Positions 29,590-46,277 of a DNA stretch of 64,000 nt are shown one piece after another. The notes beneath the pieces are model-generated. The model did not search any database, was not told the origin of the DNA, and saw nothing but the letters and a program-made list of their open reading frames with translations. Numbering within the stretch: the stretch's first letter is position 1; each line of letters opens with the position of its first letter. Position numbers and translations under genes: made by a program. Location of the stretch: positions 6,135-70,134 of the forward strand of contig CAZGGF010000276.1 in NCBI GenBank assembly GCA_964524715.1. The letters are read 5' to 3'. The DNA comes from an uncultured Verrucomicrobiota bacterium. Lineage in GTDB: Bacteria > Verrucomicrobiota > Verrucomicrobiia > CAIQCK01.

Positions 29590-32496
29590 TTACTGCGGAT
29601 TTGTCAGCACGACATCCTTCTGGCGCGACTTCGGCGTAACGACGAGGTCCACCAGCTTCCCGCCGCGAAAGCGACCCTCGACGGTCGTGCGACGCGGTGC
29701 GTGGAGTTTGAAGTGGAGGTTCCAATCCTTTGGCCATGCGGGCAGAACGTAAATCTTCCCGCCGTCGGCGTTCATGATCATGTGTTGGAGCGTGAGCAGG
29801 ATGTTGCCGCCATGGTCCTGGTCGGGCAGCCAGTCAAAGTTCGGCCCCCACATCGCCGGGAAACGGAAGTTGCGATGCGAGTTGCGAACCTTGTGGAGGA
29901 TCTGCTTTTTCGCCTCGTCGGTCATGCCGAGCAGGGCGGCGCACTGGCCATCGTAGCACCAGCCGGTCATGATCTTCGCACCGCGGCGGTTGAATGTCTC
30001 GATGCCCGTTTCCAATCCAGGCCGACCCACGGCGAACAGTCGGAAAGGCCACATCGCGTAAAGCTCCGGGTTCTCACAGTTGTTGCGTTTCGGATCGAAC
30101 TTCTCCGCGGGCAGCACAAAACTCCTGCCGTCTTCAGAGCGCACCGGCACGGACGGCGCGGCAGCCTTCATCTTCACCCACAGTTCGCGATCCGCGGCGG
30201 GCGCGGCGTCCTTCGGCAGCGCAAGCAACCTGTCGAGCACGGACTGCAAACCCGCAACGGTCGGCGTGTCGTTGACCACGTTGAACCAGTAGGTCTCGAC
30301 GGCTTGCGTCGGACTGATGATGAGCTTGCCGTTCGCGTCGCGCTGGAACCGCGTATCGAAGTAGCGCAACACTTCCCGCGCCATGGGCACGAGTTCATCA
30401 GCAAGGAACTTCGCGTCGAGCGTGCGCTCGTGGCAGTCGAGCATGAGTTGTACCAGTTCCCATCCCTGCTGCCACGCGTAGCACCAGTACTTGCCGGCCA
30501 CATCGCCCGGTTGCTTGCCCGTCCGGTCCCAGCCGTAGTCGCGGTTTGCATAGGTGCCGAAGCTCGTCATGGTCTCAGGAAAATACACACCCTCGGCTCC
30601 GTAATAGAGCTTCGCGCGCGCCTTACAGATCGGCAGCACGTCGCGGTACATACGGAATACCGCGGCGCACAGGTCGTAGTCGCCGTTCGCGACCGCGGAC
30701 CACGCCGGGAAACGCGTGTTCTGCCACCAGAAACAATCACCCCACCGCCGCCAGTCCGGGTTGAACTTCTGCTTTGGGTCGGTGAGTTCCGGGTCCACCG
30801 TAAAGATCGAGCCATTGAACTTGGTGGGGAAACTGCCCCGTCCGGCGCACGCTGCCATCCAGCGTTGGAGCACATAGGCGCGCGTCACCATCGAGGGCGT
30901 CGGCTGCTCCATGCCACCACCGCCCTCAGCTTTCAGCAACTTGCCGTTGAGATACAACCGTCTGCCATCCGCCGCCGCGTCAAACACCGCCACGACGTGG
31001 TTCCACGCGCCAAGCTGCAGCACATCGTTGACTGCCATCGCGTGCTGACCGGTTATGAACCGCAGGCTGCGGCCCGGATGTGTATCGAAAAGAAACCCGT
31101 CACCCTTGCCGGCGGTGAGCTTGTCAAAAATGCGCGCGCTCCCCGCCTTTGCATCGGGCCGAATCCAGGCTTCGATCGTGAAGCTGTTTGTGAACGCGAG
31201 GCACATCTCGTTTGGCACCTCGATGTGTCCGCCGCCAAACGCCGCCACCCTTGCGCCATCTGACTCCTCAAACTTCACCGCGCCGACCACTTTCGCGCCA
31301 TCCGGCGCAGTGTTGAATCTCCATCCGACCAGCCTGCCATCCGCAACGGCTGCCGCATCGCCCGGCTTTCCCGACGCTAGCGACGCGATCTCCGCATCAC
31401 TGAGCGGGCGGTGATAGACCGTCGCGCGACTCATCGCGCCGCGGAACTTGCTGCCGCCGTTGCTATCGGCTCCGATACGCAGCGGGTGCGGATTCGCCAG
31501 CAATGCCGCGACGGCAACGTTATCCCCCTCGACGAAAATCCAGCTGCGATTCCAGAACGCATTCCACCAAGTTCTTGTTGCGTTTTCGGCGGCAGTACTA
31601 TTGCCCGACGACACGGCAACGGCGGCCAGTCCCTTCTCCCAAGTCGTCAGGGTGTCAGCCACCGCCGAGTGCGTCGCGACTCGAATCGCGAACCGCTTCA
31701 TGGGCGCGGATGATTTCAGCGCGGTTGCGCCGTCTTTTACGAAACCCGGCGCTGATATCGAACCGCCGAAGGTGCGGCGCAAGATTGGGTCTTTCACCAA
31801 ATCGGCAAACTTCTCCAGACTCTGGTGCTTCAGCGTCAGCGGCACGCAGGAATGTTCATTGCGGTGATACCACGTCACAGCACCGCCCGTGTCTTTGACC
31901 ACGTCTGCCGATTCCCACACCTCGATCTCCGGTGGTCCAGCCTGCATGGTCCAGCTTGAGCCAAGCTCGCCGCCTGTGAGCACCTTCTTCTCCGTCCGCC
32001 AGCATTCCAGTTGTGTCCTCACGCTGAGCGGCTGCCTGCTCTCACCCACGACGTGGATCACCGGCGCGTTTGCATCCACGAAGATGCGTATCTTGGATGT
32101 GGGACGCTGAGTGTTGGATTGCGGCCCGGCGGTATCGCCCGTGGTGATTTCAATGCACCCTTCTCGCAGCTTGAGTTCCTGGCGGAACGGCACACCCTTC
32201 GAGAACGGGTTCGGCGTCAGCGACACGCGCACACCACCGAGCTTGAGCAACCGCGACGCCTCGCTCCAAGCGTCGGTGCGGCCGATATAGAAGCGAAGGT
32301 CGCCGTCCTTTTCGACCCAGACGTTAAGGCCGACCTCGCCATTGCCAATGGGCATTGAGCCCGCGGCGGTTTCGCTGGGCGTTTCCCAAACAACATTGTA
32401 ACGATCCAATTCAGCAGGCGCGCTGGCTGATATTGTCGTGGATGCGAGAGCGGCAACAACGCAGAGGATGGAGAATCGGTTCATGACGGGCAGCAT
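29590..32496 (-). CDS. DUF5703-N/six-hairpin glycosidase-like protein with inserted LamG (concanavalin-like) domain
   Basis: 968 aa with a signal peptide. YNVVWETPSETAAGSMPIGNGEVGLNVWVEKDGDLRFYIGRTDAWSE is typical of DUF5703/GH95-like N-termini. LamG core: FTIEAWIRPD...GFLFDT...WNHVVAVFDAAADGRRLYLNGKLL. Confidence 0.6.
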   Translation of the reverse strand: MLPVMNRFSILCVVAALASTTISASAPAELDRYNVVWETPSETAAGSMPIGNGEVGLNVWVEKDGDLRFYIGRTDAWSEASRLLKLGGVRVSLTPNPFSKGVPFRQELKLREGCIEITTGDTAGPQSNTQRPTSKIRIFVDANAPVIHVVGESRQPLSVRTQLECWRTEKKVLTGGELGSSWTMQAGPPEIEVWESADVVKDTGGAVTWYHRNEHSCVPLTLKHQSLEKFADLVKDPILRRTFGGSISAPGFVKDGATALKSSAPMKRFAIRVATHSAVADTLTTWEKGLAAVAVSSGNSTAAENATRTWWNAFWNRSWIFVEGDNVAVAALLANPHPLRIGADSNGGSKFRGAMSRATVYHRPLSDAEIASLASGKPGDAAAVADGRLVGWRFNTAPDGAKVVGAVKFEESDGARVAAFGGGHIEVPNEMCLAFTNSFTIEAWIRPDAKAGSARIFDKLTAGKGDGFLFDTHPGRSLRFITGQHAMAVNDVLQLGAWNHVVAVFDAAADGRRLYLNGKLLKAEGGGGMEQPTPSMVTRAYVLQRWMAACAGRGSFPTKFNGSIFTVDPELTDPKQKFNPDWRRWGDCFWWQNTRFPAWSAVANGDYDLCAAVFRMYRDVLPICKARAKLYYGAEGVYFPETMTSFGTYANRDYGWDRTGKQPGDVAGKYWCYAWQQGWELVQLMLDCHERTLDAKFLADELVPMAREVLRYFDTRFQRDANGKLIISPTQAVETYWFNVVNDTPTVAGLQSVLDRLLALPKDAAPAADRELWVKMKAAAPSVPVRSEDGRSFVLPAEKFDPKRNNCENPELYAMWPFRLFAVGRPGLETGIETFNRRGAKIMTGWCYDGQCAALLGMTDEAKKQILHKVRNSHRNFRFPAMWGPNFDWLPDQDHGGNILLTLQHMIMNADGGKIYVLPAWPKDWNLHFKLHAPRRTTVEGRFRGGKLVDLVVTPKSRQKDVVLTNPQ

Positions 32497-35221: not shown

Positions 35222-36202
35222 TCAGTGCAAAACTCCTCCTTGGATCGCATCACCGGGCACATCAAGCAACTGGATGCTGGAAATAGTCTTCATCGTCTTG
35301 TGATCAGCGAAAGTCCACACAACCTGCTTGTCTGGCGTCACTTCGATGAGATGCGGTCCTTTGCCAAACTGGCCATGCCCCAACCAGTTGCTCATGACCG
35401 TATTGCCATTGGGCAGGCGCTGGAGACCCGCCATGAACTTCAGGCTGATGCCCGGCAACTCGTCGTCTTTGACTTCCCATACTGTTTTGCCAGCAGCATC
35501 CACTTCGAACACACGATGACCACCAACCCGGTCGCCACATGCGATGAGTGTATTGCCGTTGGGCAGGCGGATGGCGCTGTGCGGACCGCCGACTGCAGGT
35601 ATCTCCCGCACCAGTTTACCCTGCGGATCGTATTCGCGAACAGCCTGTTCACCATAGTGGGCGACGAGGTAATTGCCATTGGCGAGCAGGCGCGCATTGC
35701 GGATGTAGGCGTGGCCTCCGTCTTTGCCTTCAGGCAGCAACCGCACTTCCTTGACGATTCTGCCGTCCGACGTGACTACCAACAGACGGCCTGTGTTGCA
35801 CTCGCCAACAAACGTGTTGCCGTTGGGCAACCGTTGGCAGGCATAAATTTCACTCGGCCCCTCCACCTGTTTCGTCGTGCCATCCTTCTGCTTGACGACA
35901 CGCTTGAACGGCGAGCCTTTGTAGTCAAAGACCACCTTCTTGTCGCGGGTGACTTCCTGTACGCCTGTGCCTGTGTTGAAGAGGAGGTTGCCGTTGGGCA
36001 ATACCCAGAGATCGTTGCATGAGCCGGTCTTGTACTCCCATTCCACGTTGCCGGCAGCACTGACAATGAACACCTTGCCACCACTGTAGTCGGTGCATGC
36101 GAAGTGGTGGCCTTTGCCGGTTTGGAGTGGCATGTCGCCAGCCAGAAGATGCGAGGCCAACAGGGATGAGAGAATGCAGATCAGGAGTGTCGTTGATTTC
36201 AT
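35222..36202 (-). CDS. Secreted beta-propeller protein with reiterated LPNGN blade motif
   Basis: Signal peptide MKSTTLLICILSSLLASHLLA. Five spaced copies: LPNGNLLF, LPNGNTFV, LANGNYLV, LPNGNTLI, LPNGNTVM. Confidence 0.55.
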   Translation of the reverse strand: MKSTTLLICILSSLLASHLLAGDMPLQTGKGHHFACTDYSGGKVFIVSAAGNVEWEYKTGSCNDLWVLPNGNLLFNTGTGVQEVTRDKKVVFDYKGSPFKRVVKQKDGTTKQVEGPSEIYACQRLPNGNTFVGECNTGRLLVVTSDGRIVKEVRLLPEGKDGGHAYIRNARLLANGNYLVAHYGEQAVREYDPQGKLVREIPAVGGPHSAIRLPNGNTLIACGDRVGGHRVFEVDAAGKTVWEVKDDELPGISLKFMAGLQRLPNGNTVMSNWLGHGQFGKGPHLIEVTPDKQVVWTFADHKTMKTISSIQLLDVPGDAIQGGVLH

Positions 36203-36205
36203 GTA

Positions 36206-37399
36206 TTACAGTTCCAGTTTCCACCGCGCTTGACGCAGCACGGCGCGCGACGAGCCTTTCATCAGCTCATACCATACTGACAACAGTGTGCCATCGGCCA
36301 ACTCGACGGTGCTTGGGTAGCCAAGGTCGCCACCCGCGCCGTCTCCAGAAATGATCACCGGCTCCGACCACGTCTTGCCACCGTCGTCGCTGATGCGAGC
36401 CTGATTGCCAAATGGCGGACGACGGTGACCGTAGGTCATCAACAGTTTGCCGCTACGCAGCCGCAACAAATGCGACGGCAAGCCCCAGCAGCCGATGGGA
36501 TGCGGCACTGACCACGTCTTGCCGCCATCGGCGGATTCAGTCTGGAGCGTCTCGCCCGCATTGGCTTTGTTGTGGTTGCGAATCTGGACGATGACACGAC
36601 CTTCAACCGTCTCGACAGCATGCAACTCGTGATAACCTTTTTGCACGTCGTCGCCTTCGCGAGCGGGAATGGCGGCGAGCCAGCGCCACGTCTGGCCGTC
36701 GTCCAATGATTCGCAAACACCCATCCGTTTCCCACCGGTCCAAAGCTCCTTGCCGGCGTAGAGCAGCCGGCCGTCGCTGAGTTGGATGGGCCCATGCGGA
36801 CTGTTCACGATGCTCGAGTAACGCGCCGACCACGTTACACCGCCGTCGGTGGATCGTATCATCCACTGACCGAGCTCCGCCTGGCGTTTTTCGGCATCAA
36901 TGCGGTTGTGCGCGGCCTGCCATGCCTTGAGTTTTTCGGCCGCCCATGCACCCTTCGTGCCGGCTGCTTTCTTCCCGGCAGCGAGCAGAATCTTCTCGTA
37001 AGCGAGCGATGTAAACGTCGTCACGAGGATGCTGCCTTTCGCTGTCTCCAGCACACCGCTGTCCCGATCATCGATGGGGCCGTCGAGCAACACCTGTGGC
37101 CAGCACCACGTCTCGCCGTTGTCGTGCGATACCATCAACTCAACGCGGCCGAACGGGCAGACATGGCTCTCTCGTCCGCCGGACCAACTCACCAGCAAGT
37201 CGCCGTTACGCCGGCGCGCCACGGTCGGCCAGCCGCAATAGTATTGCGGCTGCTGGCTGATGATTTTCGTTTCCGCGACCTTGATCACCGGCGCAGCGTG
37301 AGCCGGGCGTCCGATGCTGAATGCAGCTCCGGATGCGGCCACAATGGTCGTCCGGGCAAATTGCCGGCGGGTCATCGCGAGGGACAGGGCTGGGTTCAT
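36206..37399 (-). CDS. BNR/Asp-box repeat glycosidase, sialidase (GH33)-like, TAT signal
   Basis: TRRQFARTTIVAASGAAF. Asp-boxes: SHDNGETW, STDGGVTW, SLDDGQTW, SADGGKTW, SDDGGKTW. Confidence 0.65.
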   Translation of the reverse strand: MNPALSLAMTRRQFARTTIVAASGAAFSIGRPAHAAPVIKVAETKIISQQPQYYCGWPTVARRRNGDLLVSWSGGRESHVCPFGRVELMVSHDNGETWCWPQVLLDGPIDDRDSGVLETAKGSILVTTFTSLAYEKILLAAGKKAAGTKGAWAAEKLKAWQAAHNRIDAEKRQAELGQWMIRSTDGGVTWSARYSSIVNSPHGPIQLSDGRLLYAGKELWTGGKRMGVCESLDDGQTWRWLAAIPAREGDDVQKGYHELHAVETVEGRVIVQIRNHNKANAGETLQTESADGGKTWSVPHPIGCWGLPSHLLRLRSGKLLMTYGHRRPPFGNQARISDDGGKTWSEPVIISGDGAGGDLGYPSTVELADGTLLSVWYELMKGSSRAVLRQARWKLEL

Positions 37400-37436
37400 G
37401 GAGACTCCTTGTTTTCTGGGCGTAACAACTGCGTGT

Positions 37437-38558
37437 CTATGGACGGTCGGCTTTCAACCAGTCCAGGCTCAATCGGCGCATGCGCAACCGGTTCAAGCCG
37501 CCGACCTTCGTATCGCCGGCGCAGTAGGCCAGCAAGACAGCGTCTTTCGTGAAATGGATGGCGGTATAGCAATACCAACCACCGGGGTCATTCTCAACGA
37601 GTCTGCGATGCGACCAGGTCTTGCCGCCATCGGAAGAGATCGCGGTCACCAGCGGCGTGCGCTTGCCTTTCGGGAACTCAAACGCGCCCGAGTGATCGTT
37701 GTAAACCGCGAGCAGGTCCGGTGAGTCAGGCAGGCGTTCGATGCTCGCAGGCGACACCGGTGATTTGAGCGAGGTGGCTTCCGGAACCGGCCAGTTCTTT
37801 CCCCGATCAGTGGAGTAACAACCCATCTGCGCGCCTTGGTCGGTGCGCATCCAGGAAAAGAGCCTGCCATCAGCCAGTTCCACCACGCCGGGTTCCTGCA
37901 AACCACTGCCCGTGCGCGCCGGCAACGCCCACCATGTGTTGGCCTCGCGCCAGGAGCGGCCTTCATCGTCGGAGAAATACCACATTGCGATCGCCCGGCC
38001 GTCGAACGAACGCGAGCTTTTCGGGTCGGCAGCCCGGGAGCGATGGAAAGCCACTGCTGCCACGAGCCGGCCATCCTTGAGCTGGATGACACGGTCGTTG
38101 TTGAGGACGAAATAACCCGGCGCTTCGATCATGGAAACCGGCTCAGACCACGTCTCCGCCTCGTCGCTGGAAAACCGAACGACAGGACGACAATCGAGCC
38201 AGCTATCCTTCAGCAAATAAAACAACGCAATGCGCCCGCTGCGCAATCGCAACAATGAGACGCTCATCACGTTGGCGCCGGCCTTGTTCTCCACCACCAC
38301 CTTTGGCCGGCTGCTCCATGTTCGACCGCCATCGTCGGAATGGATGCCAACGATACTCGCGGGACTCTCATCCGCTGCGCCGCCATAGAACCGGGTGTAG
38401 CAAAATAGAATCCGTCCCGACTTGAGCGTAACGAAGGAGCCTTCAGAGTTTCGCGAATTCTCCCTGGACGGCTCGATGTTGAGTACGACGGCGTTCTCCG
38501 CTGCCGACGACACAGCAACCGTCAGCAGCAACATCAGCAGCATGCGGAGGAAGGTCAT
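37437..38558 (-). CDS. BNR/Asp-box repeat glycosidase, sialidase (GH33)-like (second copy)
   Basis: Signal peptide present. Asp-boxes: SDDGGRTW, SSDEAETW, SDDEGRSW, STDRGKNW, SSDGGKTW. Confidence 0.65.
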   Translation of the reverse strand: MTFLRMLLMLLLTVAVSSAAENAVVLNIEPSRENSRNSEGSFVTLKSGRILFCYTRFYGGAADESPASIVGIHSDDGGRTWSSRPKVVVENKAGANVMSVSLLRLRSGRIALFYLLKDSWLDCRPVVRFSSDEAETWSEPVSMIEAPGYFVLNNDRVIQLKDGRLVAAVAFHRSRAADPKSSRSFDGRAIAMWYFSDDEGRSWREANTWWALPARTGSGLQEPGVVELADGRLFSWMRTDQGAQMGCYSTDRGKNWPVPEATSLKSPVSPASIERLPDSPDLLAVYNDHSGAFEFPKGKRTPLVTAISSDGGKTWSHRRLVENDPGGWYCYTAIHFTKDAVLLAYCAGDTKVGGLNRLRMRRLSLDWLKADRP

Positions 38559-38676
38559 GATGCCCCGCCTTATAACCGCGCAACAGCCCCTTGGCCAAGC
38601 TTTTCGTCATCCCACCCAAGAACCAAGATGCCACTGGCAGGAATGCTGTTGTCGCGACAGCGAAGGATGGCCGGAC

Positions 38677-41600
38677 TTAGTTCTGCGACGGGTGCGCGCG
38701 CCGGCGGCGGAAGTTCCAGGCGAAACCCACTCCCGCCAGCAGCAGTGCAGCACTGGATGGCTCGGGGACAAAGACAATCTGGCCACCGTTGGTCAGATAA
38801 ACATTCATCAAGCCGTAGCTGTCTTTGTTGGCTGCATTGATCGTTTCGCCCGCGGCGCCTTTCAGCACTTTGGTACCGTTGCTGTCCTCGTAGATGAATT
38901 CGATCCCCACGTAGATCGTCAACTGGCTCAACTTCAATGTTGCCCCGTTAAACAAATGCAGGACATCCACGTACAGCGCCTCATTGGTACCAAGTCCGCC
39001 ACCGTTGTTGATGTTGTTCACGAACTCGATGTGGTTGGTGATGTTGAGCGTGCCGACGGCGAAATTCCTATCGAAGCCCAGGAACGACACGCCCCGGTTG
39101 GTGCTGGCCACCTCGAAGGTGTTCGTCGTCACACCCACACCGGTCAGGGGGGTTGTGCCACCGACGTAGATCGTCCCGTAACGCGTGTTGTAATCCATCC
39201 TGTTGGTGCTGCCGTTCAGGAAGTTCCCGCGCAGGATCAATACGTTGTTGGTCTGCGGCATGGAGAGCACGCCGCTTGGTCCCAACATCAGAGTGCCAGT
39301 AATGATCGCTGTGGAAGGATTGACGAACGCCAGCGTGCCGTGATTCGTGACGCTGCCGTTGAATCGAATCAAGCTCTGGTTGGACACGCGAATGGATGCG
39401 CCGGCCGCGTTGGTCACAGTGCCATTGAAAGTGGCTGTGCTCTGATTGTCAATCCGCACAATGTTCTGGTTGAACAAGCCCAGGCCAGTGAAGGCGGCGT
39501 TCGTGATGGCGATGGTGCCGGTGTTGATGAACGATTGCGTCACGTCGAGCGTCGCCCCCGCTCCGAGCGCGCGCAACACGCCCGCGTTGACGGGCGTGCC
39601 GAGCGCATCGCCGTAGAAACCAGCCGTAAGCCGCAGCGTGCCGCCGGTGGCCGTGATGATGCCATCATTGCGGATCAATGCGGCTATGACGCCGTTGCCA
39701 ATGATGGAGCCGGTACTGCTGTTGGTAAGCACGCCACCTGCAACGAAGTTGGTGAACACGCCGCCAGCCAGAAGATTCACGATGCCGGCGTTGATGAAAG
39801 CATTGGAGAATTGAAGGACACTGCCGTTGCCAACAAGGATCGTGCCGGCGTTGGTGAATGTGTTGACCACGTCGAGCCGCGTCACGATACCCGTCGCATT
39901 TGCATTGGTTTGCAGGATCGTGCCGGCATTGCTGAGGTTCCAGATGAAGCTCGTCCGGTTGTTGAGATCGAGAACGGACTGTGCCAGCGCGATGATCACG
40001 TTGCTGGCGCCGAAGGTCTCGTTGCCACTGCCCGTCCTGTTGACCTGACGGTCCACCAGGCGAACCCACGCGTTGCTGCCCGACGCAGCATCGCCTATCA
40101 GGACCGTGCCAAAATAGAAGTTGGTGGCTCCGCCAAGACCGGCGGTCGCAAACACGCTGGCAACCTCAAGCTCCTGAATAGTCCATGTACCGCCGGTCGA
40201 AGAACCGTTGAAAATGTTGGTGCCGGAGAAAACGTTGAGCGATTGATTGGTGGCTGCGTTCTGGAAATCTCCGCCGATATAGAGCGTGCCGCTATTCAAG
40301 AATGAGGCATTGGTGCCAAGCCTGAAATCACCCAGCGTTCGCACGACGCCGCCGTTGGTGATGACCAACTGGTTGCCGACTGTTGCGTAGCCAATCGTCA
40401 TGTCGCCGCGATTGCTCCAAACCGAACCGGAACCGGTCACCACCACCACGTTGCTGTTGGCTCCCGTGTTTTCTCCCATGGAAACATCGGCCGTCACCAG
40501 CAAGCCACCGGCATTGACGGTCACCCGGTTGCCCACACCATAGAGCCCCACCGCGAATCCACCGCCATTGCTCCAGACTGAGCCGCTGCCACTGATCAAC
40601 GCCGTATTGTAGTTGGCGCCAGGCAGGACACCCACGCCACCCGTAGTAGAGTTGATGACCTGGCCGCCGTTGGTAACAATCAACGAGTTGTATGAACCGC
40701 CGTAACCCACGCCAAGACCGTTGGTGTTTCTCCAGACTGCATTGTTGATCAACACGCTGTTGCTATTCGCGCCGAGACCGTAACCGATGAATCCCATGCT
40801 GCTCATCACAGTGCCACCGTTGGTGATGATGAGTTGATTGCCACTGCTGACAGCGCCCACCCGCAAATCGCCAGAGTTGCTCCACACCGTGCCAGCGCCC
40901 GTTACGCTCACGATGCTCGTAAGGCCCGCCACGCCGCCGAGGATGGTCGCATAGGAAGCGCTGACCGTCACTGTGTTGGTGCCACCGAGGATGTTCCATG
41001 TCGCGGTCTGGTTGGTCGTGGCGCCAACGAAGAAGTTGCTGCCGTTTGGCGCGACAATCCGCGAACCACCGCGCGTGGTCAACGTGCCGTAGTTGAAACG
41101 GAAATATGAGTTTGCGGCGCTGGCATTGTTGTTGGTGGCAATGATCTGGTCAACAACGATGACGCCGCCGCTGAAGTTCAATGCACCCCGGGCGATTTCC
41201 AGCGTGGCGGTAGCTGCCCCGTTTGTCACATAGAGGTTGCCACCGTAGATGTTGATGGAGTTGCCCGTGGAGGTCGATCCGTTGCCGACAACCATCCAGG
41301 GAGCTGTCACCGTGCCATTGCTGCTGATAATCAGCTGCGCCTGCGGGCCATTGTAACCCACATAGATATTGCTGAGGCTGCTCCAAAGCGATCCACTGCC
41401 AGTGACCAACACGAGGTTGTTGGACGCCTGCGCGTCATAGTAGCCGATATAGCCGTAACGATTGTTGAGGACCTGGCCTCCGGCCGCAATCGTCAGACTG
41501 TTCGAAGGCCCCCAGGAACCCGCATATAGATCACCGTCGGCGAGTCTGTTGAGATTCCAAACGGAGCCTGTGCCGGTGACCAATACGCTGTTGTTGCAGC

Positions 41601-44600
41601 CACGCTGATCAGCGATGGTGCCACCCCAGGAAGTGACTGTGGCTCCATTCTCGATCATCAGGCTGTTGCCAGACCCGTGAGAGCCAACGATCACCTGGCG
41701 AGAAACAGTCAATGTCGAACCTGCGCCGCTTACCAACACGCTGTTGTTGCTCGCCGACGCCAGGAACCCGATGAAAGTGTAGAAGTCAGAAACCTGGCCT
41801 CCGTTGGAAATGTTCAAACGATTTGATGAACCGCTATTGCCAACGTAAATGGTGCTGGTGGCACCCTGCCAACTCGAGTTCGTGCCGGTCACAATGACGC
41901 TGTTGCCTCTTGAGCCCGCCGCATCACCAATGACCATGTCGATGGTCTCAACCTTTACCTTGCCCCCATCTGCAATCGTCAGGTTGTTCGAGGAGCCGGA
42001 ACCTCCAACCTGAAAATAGCTGCCGGAAACCCAAGTGCCCTTGCCCAGCTCCCACGTCGAATTCGTGCCGGTCACCAGCACACTGTTGTTGTTCGCGACG
42101 TCGTTATAGCCGATGTACGCGCCCTTCACGCTGGAAACATAGCCGCTATTGGCAATCGTCAGGCTGTTGCCGGAGCCGCTGTTGCCGACATAGAGATTAC
42201 TATTGTTGTACCAAGCCGAGCCGCTGCCCGTAACCACCACGCTGTTGTTGCTCGATCCGATCTGGCTGACAATGGAGCTATTCGTGCTCATCACCTGACC
42301 GCCGGCGGAGATGGTCAGACTGTTGCCGGAACCGTTCTCGCCAATATTCAAGTAGCCGCTGCCATTCGTGAGGCACCACAGCGAACCGCTGCCGGTCACG
42401 ACTACCGTGTTGTTGGTCGCACCACTTTCCCCGCCGATGCTGGTATCGCCAGTCAGCAGCCGGCCACCGTTATTGATCGTCAACCGGTTGCCCAAGCCAT
42501 ACAGACCCACACAAAAGTCCGCGCCATTGCTCCAGACCGAACCGCTGCCGCTGATCAGCACGGTATTGTTGTTTGCACCGAGGAAGACGCCCACACCGCC
42601 GGTCGTTGTGTTGATGACCACACCACCATTGGTAATGATCAACGAGTTGTATGAGCCGCCGTAACCCACGGCAAAACCGTTGGTGCTGCGCCAGACTGAA
42701 CCCGTGCCACTCACCAGCACGCTGTTGTAGTTCGCACTGGCATCGTAGCCGATGTAGCCCATGCTGTTCACCACCCTGCCGGTGTTGATAATCTCCAGGT
42801 AATTGTAAGAACCCGTCGCGCCGACCATAAGATCGCCACTGTTGGTCCACAACGATCCCGTGCTGACCCAAGCGCGGTTATTGGTCGAAATCTGCGAATT
42901 TCCAACAACACCCGCGCTGGAAATGAGCACCCCTGTATTCGTGATGATCAGGCCGTTGGCCGCGCCATTGGTGCCCACCATATAGGAGCCCGGGTAGTTC
43001 ACCGTGATGTTATTGATGATATTCGTGAGCGGGGTGCTGCCGTTGGCGTCGACATAGATCTCACCGATGCTGTAGAGGAGGCTGGTGTTCCAGAACAAGG
43101 CCCCACTCAAGGCCGGCAGATTGGTTGTGCTGAAAGCTCCCGTGCTTCCGCTGAAATCGAACAAATCAAACCGGTCGCCCATCAGCGGAACGTAGCCATC
43201 GAGCAAGACCGTCAGGGTGCCTCCGAAGTTGAACGTGCCGGTGATATTTATTTGGTCGAACAGCGACGCATTGGTGCCGGCCAACTGCATCTGCAAAAGC
43301 GCAGCGCTGAGCAGAGTCATGTCACCGCTGACCGTGATGGTGCCTGCCGAATCGCCAGGAGCGATGGAACCCGCGACTGTGATGGCCCCCGTGATCGCAC
43401 CCGTGCCAGTCAGCCAGGCGTTGGTGTTGATGAACAACCCGTTGGCGAAAGAGTGACCGCCGCCCAACAGATGCAGTGTTGCACTGCTGAGACCGTTGCC
43501 GACGCGGAACAACGAACTGTTGTTGATGGTGCTCCCGCCACTGTTGAGCATGCCACCGTTGAAGTTGATCACGCTGTTGGCGAGATTGGTAACGACGAGT
43601 CGGTTCACGGTGACGGTGCCACTGTTGAACGTCAGCGAACCGCGCCGGATTTCGAGCGTGCCGGTGCCAGCCGCGTTGGTGGCGTGAAGATTACCGCCTG
43701 AGACCGTGATGGTATTGCCGGTGGAGGTTGCGCTGTTGCCCACGAAGATGTAGGGGGCAAAAACAGTGCCATTGTCGTTGATGGTCAGTGAGGAACCGGG
43801 ACCAGACTCGCCCACGACGAAACTGTTGGCGTTGCTCCACAACGAACCGATGCCACTGACCAGCGCGCTGTTGTTGCTCGCGCTGGCGGTGGCGCCAATG
43901 ATGCCATTGCTGGTCAGGGCCATGCCGCCGTTAGTAATTATCAGGCGATTGAACGAACCATCAGAGCCCACGGCAATATGGTCGCTGCTGATCCAAGCCG
44001 AGCCCGTGTCTCTGATAACAACCTGGTTATTACTCGCACTGGATTCACTGCCAATGTCACCGTAAATGCTCATCACATGGCCGCTGTTGGCAATGGTCAA
44101 CTTGTTGTAAGAACCGTATTCGCCAATGTTTATGCTGCCGTAGCCAACAGCTCCATTCCAGAGTGCGCTGCTGCCGGTCACCTGTACGACGTTATTGGTC
44201 GCGTTCGCGTCTCCGCCGATGGTGGCCTCAGTAGTCACCAGCAAGCCACCGTTGTTGACCATCAACTGGTTATCCGAACCGTAGTACCCCACCGCGAAAC
44301 CGCTCACGTTGGACCAGATCGAACCGCTGCCGCTGACGAGCGCAATGTTGTTGCTGGCAGTGGAAAGGACACCGACGCCGCCGGTGGTAACGCTGATGAC
44401 CACGCCGCCGTTGGTAATGAGCAACCAGTTGAAAGCCCCGGCGTAACCCACCGCGAAACCGTTGGTGCTGATCCAAGTGCTGCCGCCTTTAACCACCGCG
44501 CCGTTGTTGCTTGCGCCGTCCACGGCGCCGATGTAGCCGAAACCGTTCACCACCCGTCCGCTGTTAGCGATGGTCAAACTGTTGCCGCTGCCGAAGTCGC

Positions 44601-46059
44601 CCACGCGAAGATCGAGGTTGTTGGTCAAAAGCGAGCCACTGCCGCTGACCAGCACGCTGTTGTTGCTCGCGTAAGCCGTGCGACCAATATAGGTGTCGGT
44701 GTAAAATACCTGGCCCCCGTTGGTGATGGCCAAGCTATTGTAGGAGCCATTGTTGCCAACATACAGACCGCCACCGCCCCAGATGGCGCCACCTGTCACC
44801 ACCACGGCATTGTTACTGGCAACAATGCCATCGCCAATGTAGCCATTGGCATTCACCACCCAACCGCTGCTGGCAAGGGTCAGGCTGTTGGAAGATCCAT
44901 TCCAGCCGACCCACAGGTCACCACTGTTGGTCCATCCGGATCCGGTCCCGGTGACCAGCACCCTGTTGTTGTTGGCATTGGCGTCGCTACCGATTACAGC
45001 ATTGGCGCTGTAAACCATGCCACCGCTGGAAATGGTCAGGTTATTGAAGCAACCCGTCTCACCGACATACAGATCCAGAACATTGGACCAAATTGAGCCG
45101 CTGCCAGTAACCAACACCGAGTTGTAGTTGGCGGTGTAATCCTTGCCGATGGTGCCGTAGTTGTTGTAAACGACACCCCCGGCCGAGATGATCAGGTTGT
45201 TGCTGGTGGAACCGTTACCGAAGCCAATGACCAAATCCGCGGCATTGCTCCAAATCGAACCAGAACCGGTCACCACCACCAAGTTACTGCTCGAAGCACA
45301 AGTTCCATCATCGAAGCCAATAAAGCCGAAGTTATTGGACACCATGCCGCCATTTTCAATGATCAGGGTATTGCTGGACCCGTAACACCCCACGTAAAGG
45401 TCGGCGCTATTGCCCCAGATCGACCCGCTGCCACTGACGCGCACGGAGTTGTTGCTTGCTCCACCAGTGATCGGATCGGTGATGCCGATGTAGGCGTTAC
45501 CGCTATAGACCTGACCCCCGCTGTCAATCGTCAAGCTGTTGGCATAACCACAGTTGCCCACAAACAAGTCACCGCCGCTGTTGTCCCAAATCGAACCGGT
45601 GCCGGTGACCACCACGCGGTTGTTGTGGGACGAGACGTCGTTACCGATGATGCCGTTGTAATTGGTGACTGAGGCCCCGTTGGTGATGACCAGGCTGTTG
45701 TGTGACCCAACATTGCCAATGAACAAATATGAACTGAGATTCCACGTCGCACCCGAACCTCTCACAGTAACCAGGTTGTTGTCGGATCCACTCGCATTGC
45801 CGATGTACCCCATGATGACACCCACCAGCGTACCGGGCGCAGCAATGGTCAACCGGTTGTTGCTGTTAACATCGCCGATGTAAGCATCGGCAGTACCGTT
45901 ATCCAGCGCAGAGGTAATGGAATAAGAGCCGCTGTCGTCGATATTAACAGGAACGCTTGGCGTCGCGGCTTGCGCGGGCAAGGCGCAAACAAGCGCTGCC
46001 AGCAAGCCTCCCAGGGCCAGCCAGCACCAACCCCTTAAATGGATGCTTCTGACTTCCAT
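38677..46059 (-). CDS. Giant (2460 aa) PEP-CTERM-anchored surface repeat protein (autotransporter-associated beta-strand/PATR-like repeats)
   Basis: One uninterrupted 7.4-kb ORF with signal peptide MEVRSIHLRGWCWLALGGLLAALVCALPAQA. About 27 copies (eye count) of a 52-58-aa unit: NNsVlVtGsGSiWsN..dLyVG..GssNsLtI.nGG.V......IG. The C-terminus VPEPSSAALLLAGVGFAWNFRRRR is a PEP-CTERM sorting signal. Confidence 0.85.
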   Translation of the reverse strand: MEVRSIHLRGWCWLALGGLLAALVCALPAQAATPSVPVNIDDSGSYSITSALDNGTADAYIGDVNSNNRLTIAAPGTLVGVIMGYIGNASGSDNNLVTVRGSGATWNLSSYLFIGNVGSHNSLVITNGASVTNYNGIIGNDVSSHNNRVVVTGTGSIWDNSGGDLFVGNCGYANSLTIDSGGQVYSGNAYIGITDPITGGASNNSVRVSGSGSIWGNSADLYVGCYGSSNTLIIENGGMVSNNFGFIGFDDGTCASSSNLVVVTGSGSIWSNAADLVIGFGNGSTSNNLIISAGGVVYNNYGTIGKDYTANYNSVLVTGSGSIWSNVLDLYVGETGCFNNLTISSGGMVYSANAVIGSDANANNNRVLVTGTGSGWTNSGDLWVGWNGSSNSLTLASSGWVVNANGYIGDGIVASNNAVVVTGGAIWGGGGLYVGNNGSYNSLAITNGGQVFYTDTYIGRTAYASNNSVLVSGSGSLLTNNLDLRVGDFGSGNSLTIANSGRVVNGFGYIGAVDGASNNGAVVKGGSTWISTNGFAVGYAGAFNWLLITNGGVVISVTTGGVGVLSTASNNIALVSGSGSIWSNVSGFAVGYYGSDNQLMVNNGGLLVTTEATIGGDANATNNVVQVTGSSALWNGAVGYGSINIGEYGSYNKLTIANSGHVMSIYGDIGSESSASNNQVVIRDTGSAWISSDHIAVGSDGSFNRLIITNGGMALTSNGIIGATASASNNSALVSGIGSLWSNANSFVVGESGPGSSLTINDNGTVFAPYIFVGNSATSTGNTITVSGGNLHATNAAGTGTLEIRRGSLTFNSGTVTVNRLVVTNLANSVINFNGGMLNSGGSTINNSSLFRVGNGLSSATLHLLGGGHSFANGLFINTNAWLTGTGAITGAITVAGSIAPGDSAGTITVSGDMTLLSAALLQMQLAGTNASLFDQINITGTFNFGGTLTVLLDGYVPLMGDRFDLFDFSGSTGAFSTTNLPALSGALFWNTSLLYSIGEIYVDANGSTPLTNIINNITVNYPGSYMVGTNGAANGLIITNTGVLISSAGVVGNSQISTNNRAWVSTGSLWTNSGDLMVGATGSYNYLEIINTGRVVNSMGYIGYDASANYNSVLVSGTGSVWRSTNGFAVGYGGSYNSLIITNGGVVINTTTGGVGVFLGANNNTVLISGSGSVWSNGADFCVGLYGLGNRLTINNGGRLLTGDTSIGGESGATNNTVVVTGSGSLWCLTNGSGYLNIGENGSGNSLTISAGGQVMSTNSSIVSQIGSSNNSVVVTGSGSAWYNNSNLYVGNSGSGNSLTIANSGYVSSVKGAYIGYNDVANNNSVLVTGTNSTWELGKGTWVSGSYFQVGGSGSSNNLTIADGGKVKVETIDMVIGDAAGSRGNSVIVTGTNSSWQGATSTIYVGNSGSSNRLNISNGGQVSDFYTFIGFLASASNNSVLVSGAGSTLTVSRQVIVGSHGSGNSLMIENGATVTSWGGTIADQRGCNNSVLVTGTGSVWNLNRLADGDLYAGSWGPSNSLTIAAGGQVLNNRYGYIGYYDAQASNNLVLVTGSGSLWSSLSNIYVGYNGPQAQLIISSNGTVTAPWMVVGNGSTSTGNSINIYGGNLYVTNGAATATLEIARGALNFSGGVIVVDQIIATNNNASAANSYFRFNYGTLTTRGGSRIVAPNGSNFFVGATTNQTATWNILGGTNTVTVSASYATILGGVAGLTSIVSVTGAGTVWSNSGDLRVGAVSSGNQLIITNGGTVMSSMGFIGYGLGANSNSVLINNAVWRNTNGLGVGYGGSYNSLIVTNGGQVINSTTGGVGVLPGANYNTALISGSGSVWSNGGGFAVGLYGVGNRVTVNAGGLLVTADVSMGENTGANSNVVVVTGSGSVWSNRGDMTIGYATVGNQLVITNGGVVRTLGDFRLGTNASFLNSGTLYIGGDFQNAATNQSLNVFSGTNIFNGSSTGGTWTIQELEVASVFATAGLGGATNFYFGTVLIGDAASGSNAWVRLVDRQVNRTGSGNETFGASNVIIALAQSVLDLNNRTSFIWNLSNAGTILQTNANATGIVTRLDVVNTFTNAGTILVGNGSVLQFSNAFINAGIVNLLAGGVFTNFVAGGVLTNSSTGSIIGNGVIAALIRNDGIITATGGTLRLTAGFYGDALGTPVNAGVLRALGAGATLDVTQSFINTGTIAITNAAFTGLGLFNQNIVRIDNQSTATFNGTVTNAAGASIRVSNQSLIRFNGSVTNHGTLAFVNPSTAIITGTLMLGPSGVLSMPQTNNVLILRGNFLNGSTNRMDYNTRYGTIYVGGTTPLTGVGVTTNTFEVASTNRGVSFLGFDRNFAVGTLNITNHIEFVNNINNGGGLGTNEALYVDVLHLFNGATLKLSQLTIYVGIEFIYEDSNGTKVLKGAAGETINAANKDSYGLMNVYLTNGGQIVFVPEPSSAALLLAGVGFAWNFRRRRAHPSQN

Positions 46060-46090
46060 GTGTCGCTATCTGACTATTCCCGCCAAATCA

Positions 46091-46133
46091 CTCTAAAAAT
46101 AAGTCAAACGCCGAAACCCGGATGTTTCGGCGT
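46091..46133 (-). terminator. Intrinsic-terminator-like hairpin + U-tract in the 5' leader of the giant gene (candidate attenuator)
   Basis: Minus-sense RNA is ACGCCGAAAC-AUCCGG-GUUUCGGCGU (perfect 10-bp stem, 46108-46133) followed by UUGACUUAUUUUUAG (46107-46093). It ends about 31 nt upstream of the ATG at 46059. No upstream co-directional gene exists for it to terminate. Confidence 0.4.
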
Positions 46134-46277
46134 CCATGTAGTTCTATGCATTTGCTCGGGCGCGTTTTGGTTAAATACGAAAGGGCTTGTACACCCCCCC
46201 GGCGTGAATCGCAAGCCTCTAATAGATTACAAAATCGTGCGTTGACCACGCCGCTGCCTCCGGTATCATCCAGCACT

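What the first reader, a model, noticed from the sequence alone, without database searches (positions are those of the whole stretch)
38677..46059. 2460-aa PEP-CTERM repeat protein that looks like three protein-sized modules fused in frame
Seen in sequence:
- One 7.4-kb ORF with a signal peptide and a terminal VPEP-TM-RRRR sorting signal.
- By eye I count 13 copies of a 52-58-aa unit (NNsVlVtGsGSiWsN..dLyVG..GssNsLtI.nGG.V).
- A cap module follows (GNTITVSGGNLHATNAAGTGTLEIRRGSLTFNSG ... FDLFDFSGSTGAFSTTNLPALSGALFWNTSLLYSIGEIYVD, nt ~43740-43048). It resembles the usual C-terminal end of PATR-type proteins.
- Ten more units follow, then a second cap (GNSINIYGGNLYVTNGAATATLEIARGALNFSGG, nt ~41270-41160).
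- Four more units follow, then a divergent ~600-aa tail.
- A ~100-aa sub-block (NGFAVGY.G..N.LIITNGG.VI..TTGGVGV....NN.ALISGSGS.WSN) recurs once in each module.

Established knowledge: PEP-CTERM proteins are exosortase substrates, and PATR repeats form beta-helical surface fibres.

Inference: the gene arose by in-frame concatenation or triplication of a 700-1000-aa ancestor and encodes a very long adhesin or sheath fibre. No exosortase gene is in the window. It sits directly downstream of two sialidase-like genes and a propeller gene on the same strand.
Basis: partly seen in the sequence, partly recalled or inferred. Interest (0 to 1): 0.7.

Follow-up and report, generated by a model that had tools for sequence, protein, structure and literature searches.

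The report
Giant PEP-CTERM beta-helix repeat surface protein
This is a real 2460-residue secreted repeat protein of a Verrucomicrobiia bacterium, an ordinary member of a large catalogued family of beta-helical cell-surface proteins, and its only unusual trait is that two complete "passenger" cassettes are joined end to start in one reading frame.

Summary
It has a signal peptide, then 13 + 10 + 4 repeat units, two "caps", a 524-aa tail and a PEP-CTERM anchor.

The repeat is TIGR04393 (T5SS/PEP-CTERM-associated repeat; 26 stretches, E 1.4e-152), not PATR.

It is not an assembly artefact. Five other sequences from separate contigs show the same architecture: three full-length (2456-2466 aa) and two truncated. 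The internal DNA repeats are at most 74-80% identical.

The "three fused modules" reading is half right:
- The A|B boundary looks like a protein end joined to a protein start. capN+capC normally sits just before the anchor, and it is followed here by the family's canonical mature N-terminus.
- The B|C boundary is only a ~100-aa capN element. At least one capN occurs in 88 of the 120 best homologues, and two or more in 65.

Orthologues at the same locus carry one, two or three modules. Both breakpoints of the 653-aa difference lie in the recurring ~100-aa sub-block.

AlphaFold models of the cap region and of the tail are confident and all-beta. They resemble autotransporter passenger beta-helices only weakly.

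Verdict: a new member of a known kind, of modest interest.

The parts
45967..46059 (-). Signal peptide (aa 1-31, MEVRSIHLRGWCWLALGGLLAALVCALPAQA|A)
   Evidence: Read directly from the translation. The same N-terminus is conserved in orthologues P0006, P0010, P0144 and in the upstream-extended P0004. No predictor was run.
45805..45966 (-). Mature N-terminal start segment of module A (aa 32-85). It is a diverged variant of the family start motif and includes one partial unit.
   Evidence: Partial unit hit at aa 38-78. It does not match the start-motif HMM significantly.
43744..45804 (-). Module A: 13 TIGR04393 units of ~52 aa each (aa 86-772)
   Evidence: Own HMM. TIGR04393 gives 26 stretches over the whole protein, E 1.4e-152.
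43450..43743 (-). capN1 (aa 773-870), a ~100-aa punctuation element (GN.I.VSGGNL.ATN....LE+RRG.L.FNSG...)
   Evidence: Aligns with capN2. It recurs between unit runs in 88 of 120 homologues. No Pfam or NCBIfam model covers it.
43024..43449 (-). capC (aa 871-1012), the usual pre-anchor C-terminal module of the family
   Evidence: It is followed directly by a PEP-CTERM anchor in P0039, P0050, P0057, P0060 and P0069. 97 of 135 copies lie within 120 aa of the C-terminus in 136 representatives. capN+capC has 9565 relatives at E <= 1e-3.
42907..43023 (-). Internal start motif (aa ~1008-1051, LTNIINNITVNYPGSYMVGTNGAANGLIITNTGVL). It equals the canonical mature N-terminus of family proteins.
   Evidence: An HMM of the post-capC linkers hits aa ~20-95 of 33 of 120 homologues, right after their signal peptides, with E of about 1e-15 to 1e-20 for the best hits listed.
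41293..42906 (-). Module B: 10 TIGR04393 units (aa 1052-1589)
40960..41292 (-). capN2 (aa 1590-1700), with no capC and no start motif after it
40342..40959 (-). Module C: 4 TIGR04393 units (aa ~1706-1906)
38770..40341 (-). TAIL (aa 1907-2430). It is predicted as beta-helix and is specific to a small Verrucomicrobia subfamily.
   Evidence: There are 19 hits at E <= 1e-5, and those named by their source are Verrucomicrobia PEP-CTERM proteins. AF2 gives pLDDT 80.7 and pTM 0.79, all-beta. Foldseek matches to Ag43, IgA1 protease, Hbp and EspC are weak. No Pfam model covers it.
38677..38769 (-). PEP-CTERM sorting signal (VPEP, TM helix, RRRR) plus the stop codon
   Evidence: TIGR02595 E 3e-5. PF07589 E 1.2e-4. 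AF2 predicts a helix at aa 2436-2452 of the protein.
44155..44454 (-). Sub-block copy A (aa 536-635; NGFAVGY...TTGGVGV...)
   Evidence: the repeat finder family D3, 69% nt identity to the C copy. 60-64% aa identity to the other two copies.
42373..42672 (-). Sub-block copy B (aa 1130-1229). It holds one breakpoint of the 653-aa difference from the two-module orthologues.
40414..40713 (-). Sub-block copy C (aa 1783-1882). It holds the other breakpoint.
46105..46136 (-). Conserved hairpin or palindrome in the 5' leader (GACGCCGAAAC-loop-GTTTCGGCGT), 45-75 nt upstream of the ATG
   Evidence: Flagged. It is invariant in four orthologous loci even though the upstream genes differ. It is unique in the window. 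There is no Rfam match.
35222..38558 (-). Conserved downstream genes: BNR_2 (37437-38558), BNR_2 (36206-37399) and a Mala_s_1-like beta-propeller (35222-36202). All three have signal peptides.
   Evidence: Pfam. The same order and spacing are seen behind P0002 and P0004. No terminator-like site lies in the 118-nt gap.

Best explanation
**What it is.** The gene encodes a Sec-exported, PEP-CTERM-tagged cell-surface protein of a Verrucomicrobiia bacterium. It belongs to the TIGR04393 "T5SS/PEP-CTERM-associated repeat" family.

**Predicted shape (inferred).**
- Both modelled segments (about 45% of the chain) are predicted as right-handed beta-helix of the autotransporter-passenger type. The rest consists of the same repeat units, so almost the whole chain is probably beta-helix.
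- Each ~52-aa unit makes roughly two rungs. The whole protein would then be a rod several tens of nm long.
- An exosortase encoded elsewhere in the genome would process or anchor it at the C-terminal VPEP-TM-RRRR signal.

**How it is built.** It consists of capped cassettes:
- Cassette 1 is signal peptide, start segment, 13 units, capN and capC. This is a complete family "passenger" lacking only its anchor.
- Cassette 2 begins with the family's canonical mature N-terminus. It runs through 10 units, a capN punctuation, 4 units and a subfamily-specific 524-aa beta-helical tail to the anchor.
- The protein is therefore best read as an in-frame end-to-start join of two passengers, plus the internal capN punctuation typical of the family.

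**How its length varies.**
- Length differs among close orthologues at the same locus: one module (1420 aa), two modules (~1814 aa) and three modules (2456-2466 aa).
- Both breakpoints of the 653-aa difference fall in the repeated ~100-aa sub-block. This points to recombination between sub-block copies.
- I favour deletion from a three-module form.

**Likely role (inferred).** An extended adhesive or glycan-contacting surface fibre, probably co-expressed with the secreted BNR/BNR/propeller proteins encoded immediately downstream.
For: **Shown**
- TIGR04393 matches in 26 stretches (495.6 bits against a cutoff of 23). PEP-CTERM HMMs score above cutoff.
- Unit map.
- The same three-module architecture occurs in P0002 (84% identity, 100% coverage), P0142, P0144, P0141 and P0003, each on a separate contig.
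- DNA repeats are at most 74-80% identical, and TRF finds no arrays. Synonymous sites between sub-block copies are at background level.
- capC is normally pre-anchor and C-terminal.
- The segment after capC equals the canonical mature N-terminus.
- Single-cassette proteins of the form SP-start-units-capN-capC-PEP-CTERM exist: P0039, P0050, P0060.
- capN is a common internal element.
- P0004 and P0008 are collinear with the query apart from a 653-aa gap. P0006 is collinear apart from a 1035-aa gap.
- The single unit run of the shorter orthologues reads B1 (73-77% in P0004/P0008; this unit is diverged in P0006), then B2 (75-79%), C3 (71-73%), C4 (74-77%). It is a B|C hybrid.
- AF2 of aa 613-1112 gives pLDDT 87.3 and pTM 0.77, all-beta. 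The top Foldseek hit is a beta-helix domain (7jvi, E 4.8e-4), followed by Ag43, TibA, Ssp, IgA1 protease, IcsA and pertactin.
- AF2 of aa 1861-2460 gives pLDDT 80.7 and pTM 0.79, all-beta plus a terminal TM helix.
- The BNR-BNR-propeller genes are syntenic behind P0002 and P0004 even though the upstream flanks differ.

**Established knowledge**
- PEP-CTERM has a tripartite signal, always accompanies an N-terminal signal peptide, and exosortase is its proposed sorting enzyme (PMC3237569).
Against: - No exosortase is in the window, and the rest of the genome could not be searched.
- Foldseek TM-scores are low (0.2-0.4), and only one hit reaches E < 1e-3. The fold class is supported, but no specific structural relative is.
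I could not verify that the helix runs unbroken through capN, capC and the start motif. pLDDT drops to 61-77 there.
- The direction of module change (loss or gain) is not settled. The tail tree is mosaic, and more distant single-module relatives (P0010, P0015, P0022) sit at other loci.
- The function (adhesin, sheath or glycan contact) has no direct evidence. No paper on TIGR04393 was found.
- The link to the BNR genes holds only in the close clade.
Confidence: 0.8

Rival explanations
1. One reading: the gene is an in-frame triplication of one complete 700-1000-aa ancestral protein, giving three equivalent modules.
For: - The three sub-block copies are in the same relative order.
- A13+capN1 resembles B10+capN2 (about 52%), and A11 and B4 share an insertion.
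Against: - The modules are unequal: 13 units+capN+capC, 10 units+capN, and 4 units+524-aa tail.
- Only module B starts with the canonical start motif, and only module A ends with capC.
- Most units have their best match within their own module or scattered, not at collinear positions.
- capN punctuation is general in the family.
Confidence: 0.12
2. Assembly artefact: the repeat number or the fusion of modules results from mis-assembly of a metagenomic repeat region.
For: The source is probably a MAG contig. Repeat proteins are a classic trap for short-read assembly.
Against: - Five other sequences, each on a separate contig, have the same architecture. Three are full-length (P0002 2456 aa, P0142 2466 aa on a 538-kb contig, P0144 2456 aa) and two are partial.
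- The longest internal DNA repeats are 300 nt at 69-74% identity.
- There are no TRF arrays.
Confidence: 0.03
3. The beta-helix is catalytic or substrate-binding, like a polysaccharide lyase, glycosidase or tailspike, and not a passive adhesin fibre. The protein would be a surface-tethered glycan-processing scaffold that works with the downstream BNR (sialidase-like) and propeller proteins.
For: - The neighbourhood is rich in carbohydrate-active enzyme genes: GH20 x2, GH10 x2, NAGLU, an amylase, a GH95-like gene and a pectate-lyase-like beta-helix.
- The BNR-BNR-propeller cluster is conserved.
- PL6 lyases and tailspikes appear among weak Foldseek hits.
Against: - No catalytic-domain HMM hits anywhere in the 2460 aa.
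- The best structural matches are adhesin-type autotransporter passengers.
- More distant homologues with the same tail are not linked to BNR genes.
Confidence: 0.15

Closest known systems
TIGR04393 T5SS/PEP-CTERM-associated repeat proteins (NCBIfam repeat model)
   Same: - There are 26 above-threshold repeat stretches.
- A C-terminal PEP-CTERM anchor is present, one of the two C-terminal endings named in the family's title.
- JGI names several of the best homologues "T5SS/PEP-CTERM-associated repeat protein".
   Different: - It carries an internal capN+capC followed by a canonical start motif, so two passengers sit in one ORF.
- That arrangement is rare: 13 of the 120 best homologues, and 2 of 136 representatives found with the cap as query.
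- It also has a subfamily-specific 524-aa tail.
PEP-CTERM / exosortase substrates (TIGR02595, PF07589; Haft and co-workers)
   Same: - The tripartite VPEP-TM-basic C-terminus is present.
- An N-terminal signal peptide is present.
- It occurs in a Verrucomicrobia lineage (PMC3237569).
   Different: - The cognate exosortase was not seen; none is in the 64-kb window.
- Sorting has not been demonstrated for this protein or for its family.
Self-associating autotransporter passengers (Ag43, TibA) and other T5SS beta-helical passengers (pertactin, IgA1 protease, Hbp, EspC, IcsA)
   Same: - It is predicted as an all-beta solenoid.
- These are the main Foldseek matches for both modelled segments.
- Homologues of the same repeat family do carry the autotransporter beta-domain PF03797.
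   Different: - This protein has no beta-barrel translocator domain.
- It has a PEP-CTERM anchor instead.
- There is no sequence similarity to any PDB chain.
- TM-scores are only 0.2-0.4.
   Same: - It is a glycine- and asparagine-rich beta-strand repeat protein of the PVC group of bacteria.
- Some homologues combine PF12951 with TIGR04393 units.
   Different: There is no PATR hit in this protein at E <= 1. The unit is ~52 aa and belongs to a different model.

Membership tests
TIGR04393 T5SS/PEP-CTERM-associated repeat protein | Tandem ~50-aa repeats scoring above the curated cutoff of the TIGR04393 model | tested here: met
   495.6 bits against a cutoff of 23, in 26 stretches, E 1.4e-152. My own HMM finds 27 full units.
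TIGR04393 T5SS/PEP-CTERM-associated repeat protein | C-terminal autotransporter beta-domain or PEP-CTERM domain | tested here: met
   PEP-CTERM at aa 2431-2454. There is no PF03797.
PEP-CTERM / exosortase substrate | C-terminal tripartite signal (PEP motif, TM helix, basic cluster) scoring above the TIGR02595 and PF07589 cutoffs | tested here: met
   TIGR02595 gives 24.6 bits against 16. PF07589 gives 22.4 bits against 20.7. The sequence is VPEPSSAALLLAGVGFAWNFRRRR.
PEP-CTERM / exosortase substrate | N-terminal signal peptide | tested here: met
   By inspection only: MEVRSIHLRGWCWLALGGLLAALVCALPAQA|A. It is conserved in orthologues. No SignalP-type tool was available.
PEP-CTERM / exosortase substrate | An exosortase (EpsH/Xrt) is encoded in the same genome | not testable with these tools
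   None was found among about 40 window ORFs.
PATR protein (TIGR02601 / PF12951) | Hits to the PATR repeat model | tested here: not met
   There is no TIGR02601 or PF12951 hit at E <= 1.
Classical autotransporter (T5SS, type Va) | C-terminal 12-stranded beta-barrel translocator (PF03797) | tested here: not met
   Pfam finds none. The C-terminus is a single TM helix.
Classical autotransporter (T5SS, type Va) | Right-handed beta-helical passenger | tested here: inconclusive
   The AF2 models are all-beta with high confidence. The best PDB matches are beta-helices and autotransporter passengers, but TM-scores are 0.2-0.4 and only one E-value is below 1e-3.

The most novel reading that the evidence does not exclude
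- The repeat passengers of exosortase substrates may be built from autonomous beta-helix cassettes, each with its own N-terminal start cap and its own C-terminal capN/capC.
- Whole cassettes could then be joined end to start, or excised, by recombination at a conserved ~100-aa sub-block.
- Closely related Verrucomicrobia would in this way tune the length of a surface fibre to one, two or three modules at one conserved locus.
- The fibre would be the first gene of a conserved unit with two secreted BNR (sialidase-like) proteins and a propeller protein, under a conserved 5' leader hairpin. It would hold out, or recruit, glycan-processing enzymes.
Probability: 0.2. Interest if true: 0.5.

Novelty: new member of a known kind. 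Interest (0 to 1): 0.25.

Why it matters
- PEP-CTERM proteins are abundant in environmental Gram-negative bacteria, yet within the searchable literature I found no experimental paper on the TIGR04393 repeat family.
- This locus gives a clean natural series of one-, two- and three-module orthologues. It also gives a clear "C-cap | N-start" junction that marks the boundaries of a folding cassette.
- capN, capC and the tail have no Pfam or NCBIfam model, although capN+capC alone has about 9,500 relatives among cluster representatives. These modules could be turned into domain models that improve annotation of thousands of giant "hypothetical" proteins.
- Beyond that, the finding is ordinary. Giant repeat surface proteins with this repeat and this anchor are common in Verrucomicrobia.

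Tried and rejected
- **Self-BLASTP** returned only the identity hit. I replaced it with a windowed-identity dot-plot and an iterated unit HMM.
- **PDB sequence search:** no hit.
- **Rfam on the 5' leader:** no hit.
- **Literature search for TIGR04393 or the repeat name:** nothing. The first call was rejected because the search term was malformed.
- **The look-up of encoding contigs for the query protein itself:** not on record, so the source genome and its exosortase could not be examined.
- **Stand-alone tail proteins.** I considered that the short hits to the tail (P0121-P0139) were independent "tail-only" proteins. I rejected this because nearly all are fragments without signal peptides from short contigs.
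- **BNR linkage as a family trait.** I rejected this because P0010, P0015 and P0022 sit in unrelated neighbourhoods.
- **Unequal-crossover duplication.** I considered a crossover between the A and the B/C sub-block as the origin of module B. It explains B4~A11, B10~A13 and capN2~capN1. But it predicts B3~A10, whereas B3 is closest to C3 (71% against 53%). I therefore rank it below the deletion model.
- **Recent gene conversion between sub-block copies.** I rejected this because third-position and synonymous-codon identity is at background level.
- **The terminator-like call for the leader hairpin.** I did not adopt it because the T-run is present only in this window's copy.
Full report
**1. 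The observation**

The ORF 38677..46059 (-) is the longest in the region: 2460 aa with an ATG start. NCBIfam finds TIGR04393, the "T5SS/PEP-CTERM-associated repeat", in 26 stretches (495.6 bits against a cutoff of 23, E 1.4e-152). It also finds TIGR02595 PEP_CTERM at aa 2431-2454. Pfam finds PF07589 at the same place. Neither library reports PATR (TIGR02601 / PF12951) at E <= 1.

An HMM iterated on the protein itself maps the parts as follows:

| Part | aa |
|---|---|
| Partial unit plus 13 full units | 86-772 |
| Cap 1 | 773-1012 |
| Linker plus 10 full units | 1052-1589 |
| Cap 2 | 1590-1700 |
| 4 units | ~1706-1906 |
| Tail (524 aa) | 1907-2430 |
| Anchor | 2431-2460 |

A windowed-identity dot-plot shows the ~100-aa sub-block three times:
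- aa 1126 against 1779: 73% identity;
- aa 531 against 1125: 64%;
- aa 531 against 1778: 60%.

It also shows that the last unit plus cap of module A matches that of module B (aa 719 against 1537, 53%). At the DNA level the sub-block is the only long three-copy family: 300 nt at 44155, 42373 and 40414, with 69-74% identity.

**2. It is not an artefact**

The orthologue P0002 (2456 aa, 84% identity, 100% coverage) lies on a separate contig and has the same domain string. So do P0142 (2466 aa, on a 538-kb contig), P0144 (2456 aa) and the partial sequences P0141 and P0003.

No internal DNA repeat exceeds about 80% identity, and TRF finds no arrays. Between sub-block copies, third-codon-position identity (0.61) and identical-codon use among identical residues (0.58-0.66) are the same as for an arbitrary unit pair. 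The copies are therefore old. Their similarity is kept at the protein level. Collapse during assembly is unlikely.

**3. What the "caps" are**

capN1 and capN2 align over about 100 aa. I mapped unit, capN, capC, tail and anchor HMMs on the 120 best homologues. This gave three results:
- capN is a common punctuation element between unit runs. 88 of 120 proteins have at least one, 65 of 120 have two or more, and one has nine.
- capC usually occurs once, at the end of the last unit run.
- An internal capC followed by further units occurs in 13 of 120.

I then used capN1+capC as the query against 1.84 billion cluster representatives. This gave 9565 proteins at E <= 1e-3 and 2053 at E <= 1e-10. Among 136 newly returned proteins:
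- 97 of 135 capC copies lie within 120 aa of the C-terminus;
- 40 are followed by a PEP-CTERM-like end;
- only 2 proteins have an internal capC followed by units.

In P0039, P0050, P0057, P0060 and P0069 the anchor follows capC directly.

**4. The A|B boundary is an end|start junction**

I built an HMM from the ~58 aa spanning the end of each internal capC and the sequence after it. In the query this region contains LTNIINNITVNYPGSYMVGTNGAANGLIITNTGVL..GVVGNS. The HMM hits the N-terminal 140 aa of 33 of 120 homologues at aa ~20-95, immediately after their signal peptides, with E of about 1e-15 to 1e-20 for the best hits listed.

Complete single-cassette proteins of the form signal peptide - start motif - units - capN - capC - PEP-CTERM exist: P0039, P0050 and P0060.

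In the query, cassette 1 (aa 1-1012) is therefore a complete passenger that lacks only its anchor. Cassette 2 (aa ~1008-2460) is a complete mature protein that lacks only its signal peptide. Only about 5 residues separate the two.

The B|C boundary is different. It has capN only, which is the family's ordinary punctuation.

**5. Orthologue series**

Windowed-identity paths give the following:
- P0004 is annotated at 1730 aa. Its true start is 84 aa further upstream, with a signal peptide. P0004 and P0008 are collinear with the query up to aa ~1158 and again from aa ~1811. They lack 653 aa, which equals the strongest internal self-offset of the query.
- P0006 (1420 aa, complete) is collinear with aa 1-700 and with aa ~1786-2460. 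It lacks 1035 aa.

Unit by unit, the single run of the shorter proteins matches the query as shown below. The first unit of the P0006 run is too diverged to assign (best match B1 or A8, 52%).

| Unit in the shorter orthologue | Best match in the query | Alternative |
|---|---|---|
| 1st (P0004, P0008) | B1, 73-77% | C1, 50-52% |
| 2nd | B2, 75-79% | C2, 62-68% |
| 3rd | C3, 71-73% | B3, 67-69% |
| 4th | C4, 74-77% | B4, 38% |

This B|C hybrid is what recombination between the B and C sub-block copies would leave behind. I therefore favour deletion from a three-module form.

The alternative is gain by unequal crossover with the A sub-block. It explains B4~A11, B10~A13 and capN2~capN1, but it mispredicts B3. 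The tail tree is mosaic and cannot polarise the change. The direction is an inference, not a demonstrated result.

**6. Structure**

| Segment modelled | Content | Alignment | pLDDT | pTM | Fold |
|---|---|---|---|---|---|
| aa 613-1112 | A11-A13, capN1, capC, start motif, B1 | 15 sequences | 87.3 | 0.77 | all-beta |
| aa 1861-2460 | C4, tail, anchor | 12 sequences | 80.7 | 0.79 | all-beta plus a terminal TM helix |

Foldseek against the PDB returns a metagenomic beta-helix domain (7jvi, E 4.8e-4), followed by Ag43, TibA, Ssp, IgA1 protease, IcsA and pertactin.

For the second model, the Foldseek matches are weak and go to Ag43, IgA1 protease, Hbp and EspC.

TM-scores are only 0.2-0.4. The fold class (right-handed beta-helix of the passenger type) is supported, but no specific structural relative is. 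No PDB chain matches by sequence.

Each 52-aa unit carries four to six strands, which suggests about two rungs per unit. Taken over the whole protein, that would give a rod of several tens of nm. This is my rough inference.

**7. Context**

The gene is the first of a same-strand cluster:
- BNR_2 at 37437-38558;
- BNR_2 at 36206-37399;
- a Mala_s_1-like propeller at 35222-36202.

All three have signal peptides. They follow the giant gene after a 118-nt gap that contains no terminator-like site. The same three genes, with the same spacing, follow P0002 and P0004, although the upstream neighbour differs (proC in one case, cbiQ in the other). More distant tail-bearing homologues are not linked to BNR genes.

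The window is rich in glycoside hydrolase genes. It contains no exosortase among about 40 ORFs scanned. No other ORF in the window has a convincing PEP-CTERM end; a second regex match lies in an ORF antisense to the amylase gene.

PEP-CTERM is a tripartite signal that is always paired with an N-terminal signal peptide. Exosortase is its proposed sorting enzyme (PMC3237569).

**8. Verdict**

The protein is a new member of a known kind: a TIGR04393-repeat PEP-CTERM protein of Verrucomicrobiia. Orthologues are already annotated as "PEP-CTERM sorting domain-containing protein".

The noteworthy points are modest:
- an end-to-start join of two passengers within one ORF, which is uncommon in the family;
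- a natural series of one, two and three modules, in which both breakpoints of the 653-aa step lie in a conserved sub-block;
- three widespread modules that no domain library models (capN, capC and the tail);
- a conserved 5' leader hairpin.

Noticed in passing
window 46060-46260 (-), hairpin at 46105-46136: About 200 nt of the giant gene's 5' leader is conserved in four orthologous loci even though the upstream genes differ (proC or cbiQ). It contains an invariant 10-bp-arm palindrome or hairpin, GACGCCGAAAC-(8 nt)-GTTTCGGCGT, 45-75 nt before the ATG. The motif is unique in the window and has no Rfam match. It could be a UTR stem-loop or an operator.
   Followed up: partly
L002 9750-10001 (P0004 locus, GCA_026397915.1 JAPLTX010000021.1): The deposited start of orthologue P0004 is 84 codons too far downstream. 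The in-frame upstream sequence encodes MEIRSSHFRS... with a signal peptide matching that of the query.
   Followed up: yes
window 38770-40341 (tail) compared with P0002, P0004, P0006, P0008, P0011, P0122: The tail is a mosaic of two variant blocks that do not co-segregate.
- Mid-tail variant ('SFINTGTIAITNAAF..'): P0001, P0002, P0006, P0011. The alternative ('SFTNTGTILASNAAAFTTTASAP..') is in P0004, P0008, P0122.
- C-end variant ('IEFIYEDSNGTKVLKG..'): P0001, P0002, P0004. The alternative ('SFVDD..GQTF..') is in P0006, P0008, P0011, P0122.

This suggests recombination among alleles (sequences).
   Followed up: partly
P0004 aa 426-575 and P0006 aa 501-650 compared with window aa 510-668 and 1103-1262: In the orthologues, parts of the positional A9-A11 sub-block match the query's B2-B4 as well as, or better than, its own A9-A11. 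By 50-aa windows this holds across much of the block; by whole units it holds only for A11 against B4 in P0006 (65% against 60%). This hints at past exchange between sub-block copies.
   Followed up: partly
window 38422-40305 (+) and 43978-45096 (+): Long antisense ORFs of 627 aa and 372 aa lie entirely inside the giant gene. They look like by-products of its G+C-rich repetitive composition and not like genes.
   Followed up: no
window 719-20836 and 29590-32496: The window is dense in carbohydrate-active enzyme genes:
- two GH20;
- two GH10;
- NAGLU;
- an alpha-amylase;
- a pectate-lyase-like beta-helix;
- a 3-keto-disaccharide hydrolase;
- a DUF5703/LamG/GH95-like gene.

It also holds two 396-aa enolase-superfamily (MR_MLE) ORFs, at 12540-13730 and 19646-20836, with identical domain coordinates. 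They may be paralogues.
   Followed up: no
window 36206-37399 (-): The N-terminus of the second BNR_2 protein (MNPALSLAMTRRQFARTTIVAASGAAFSIGRPAHA) looks like a twin-arginine (Tat) signal. The first BNR protein and the propeller protein have Sec-type signals.
   Followed up: no
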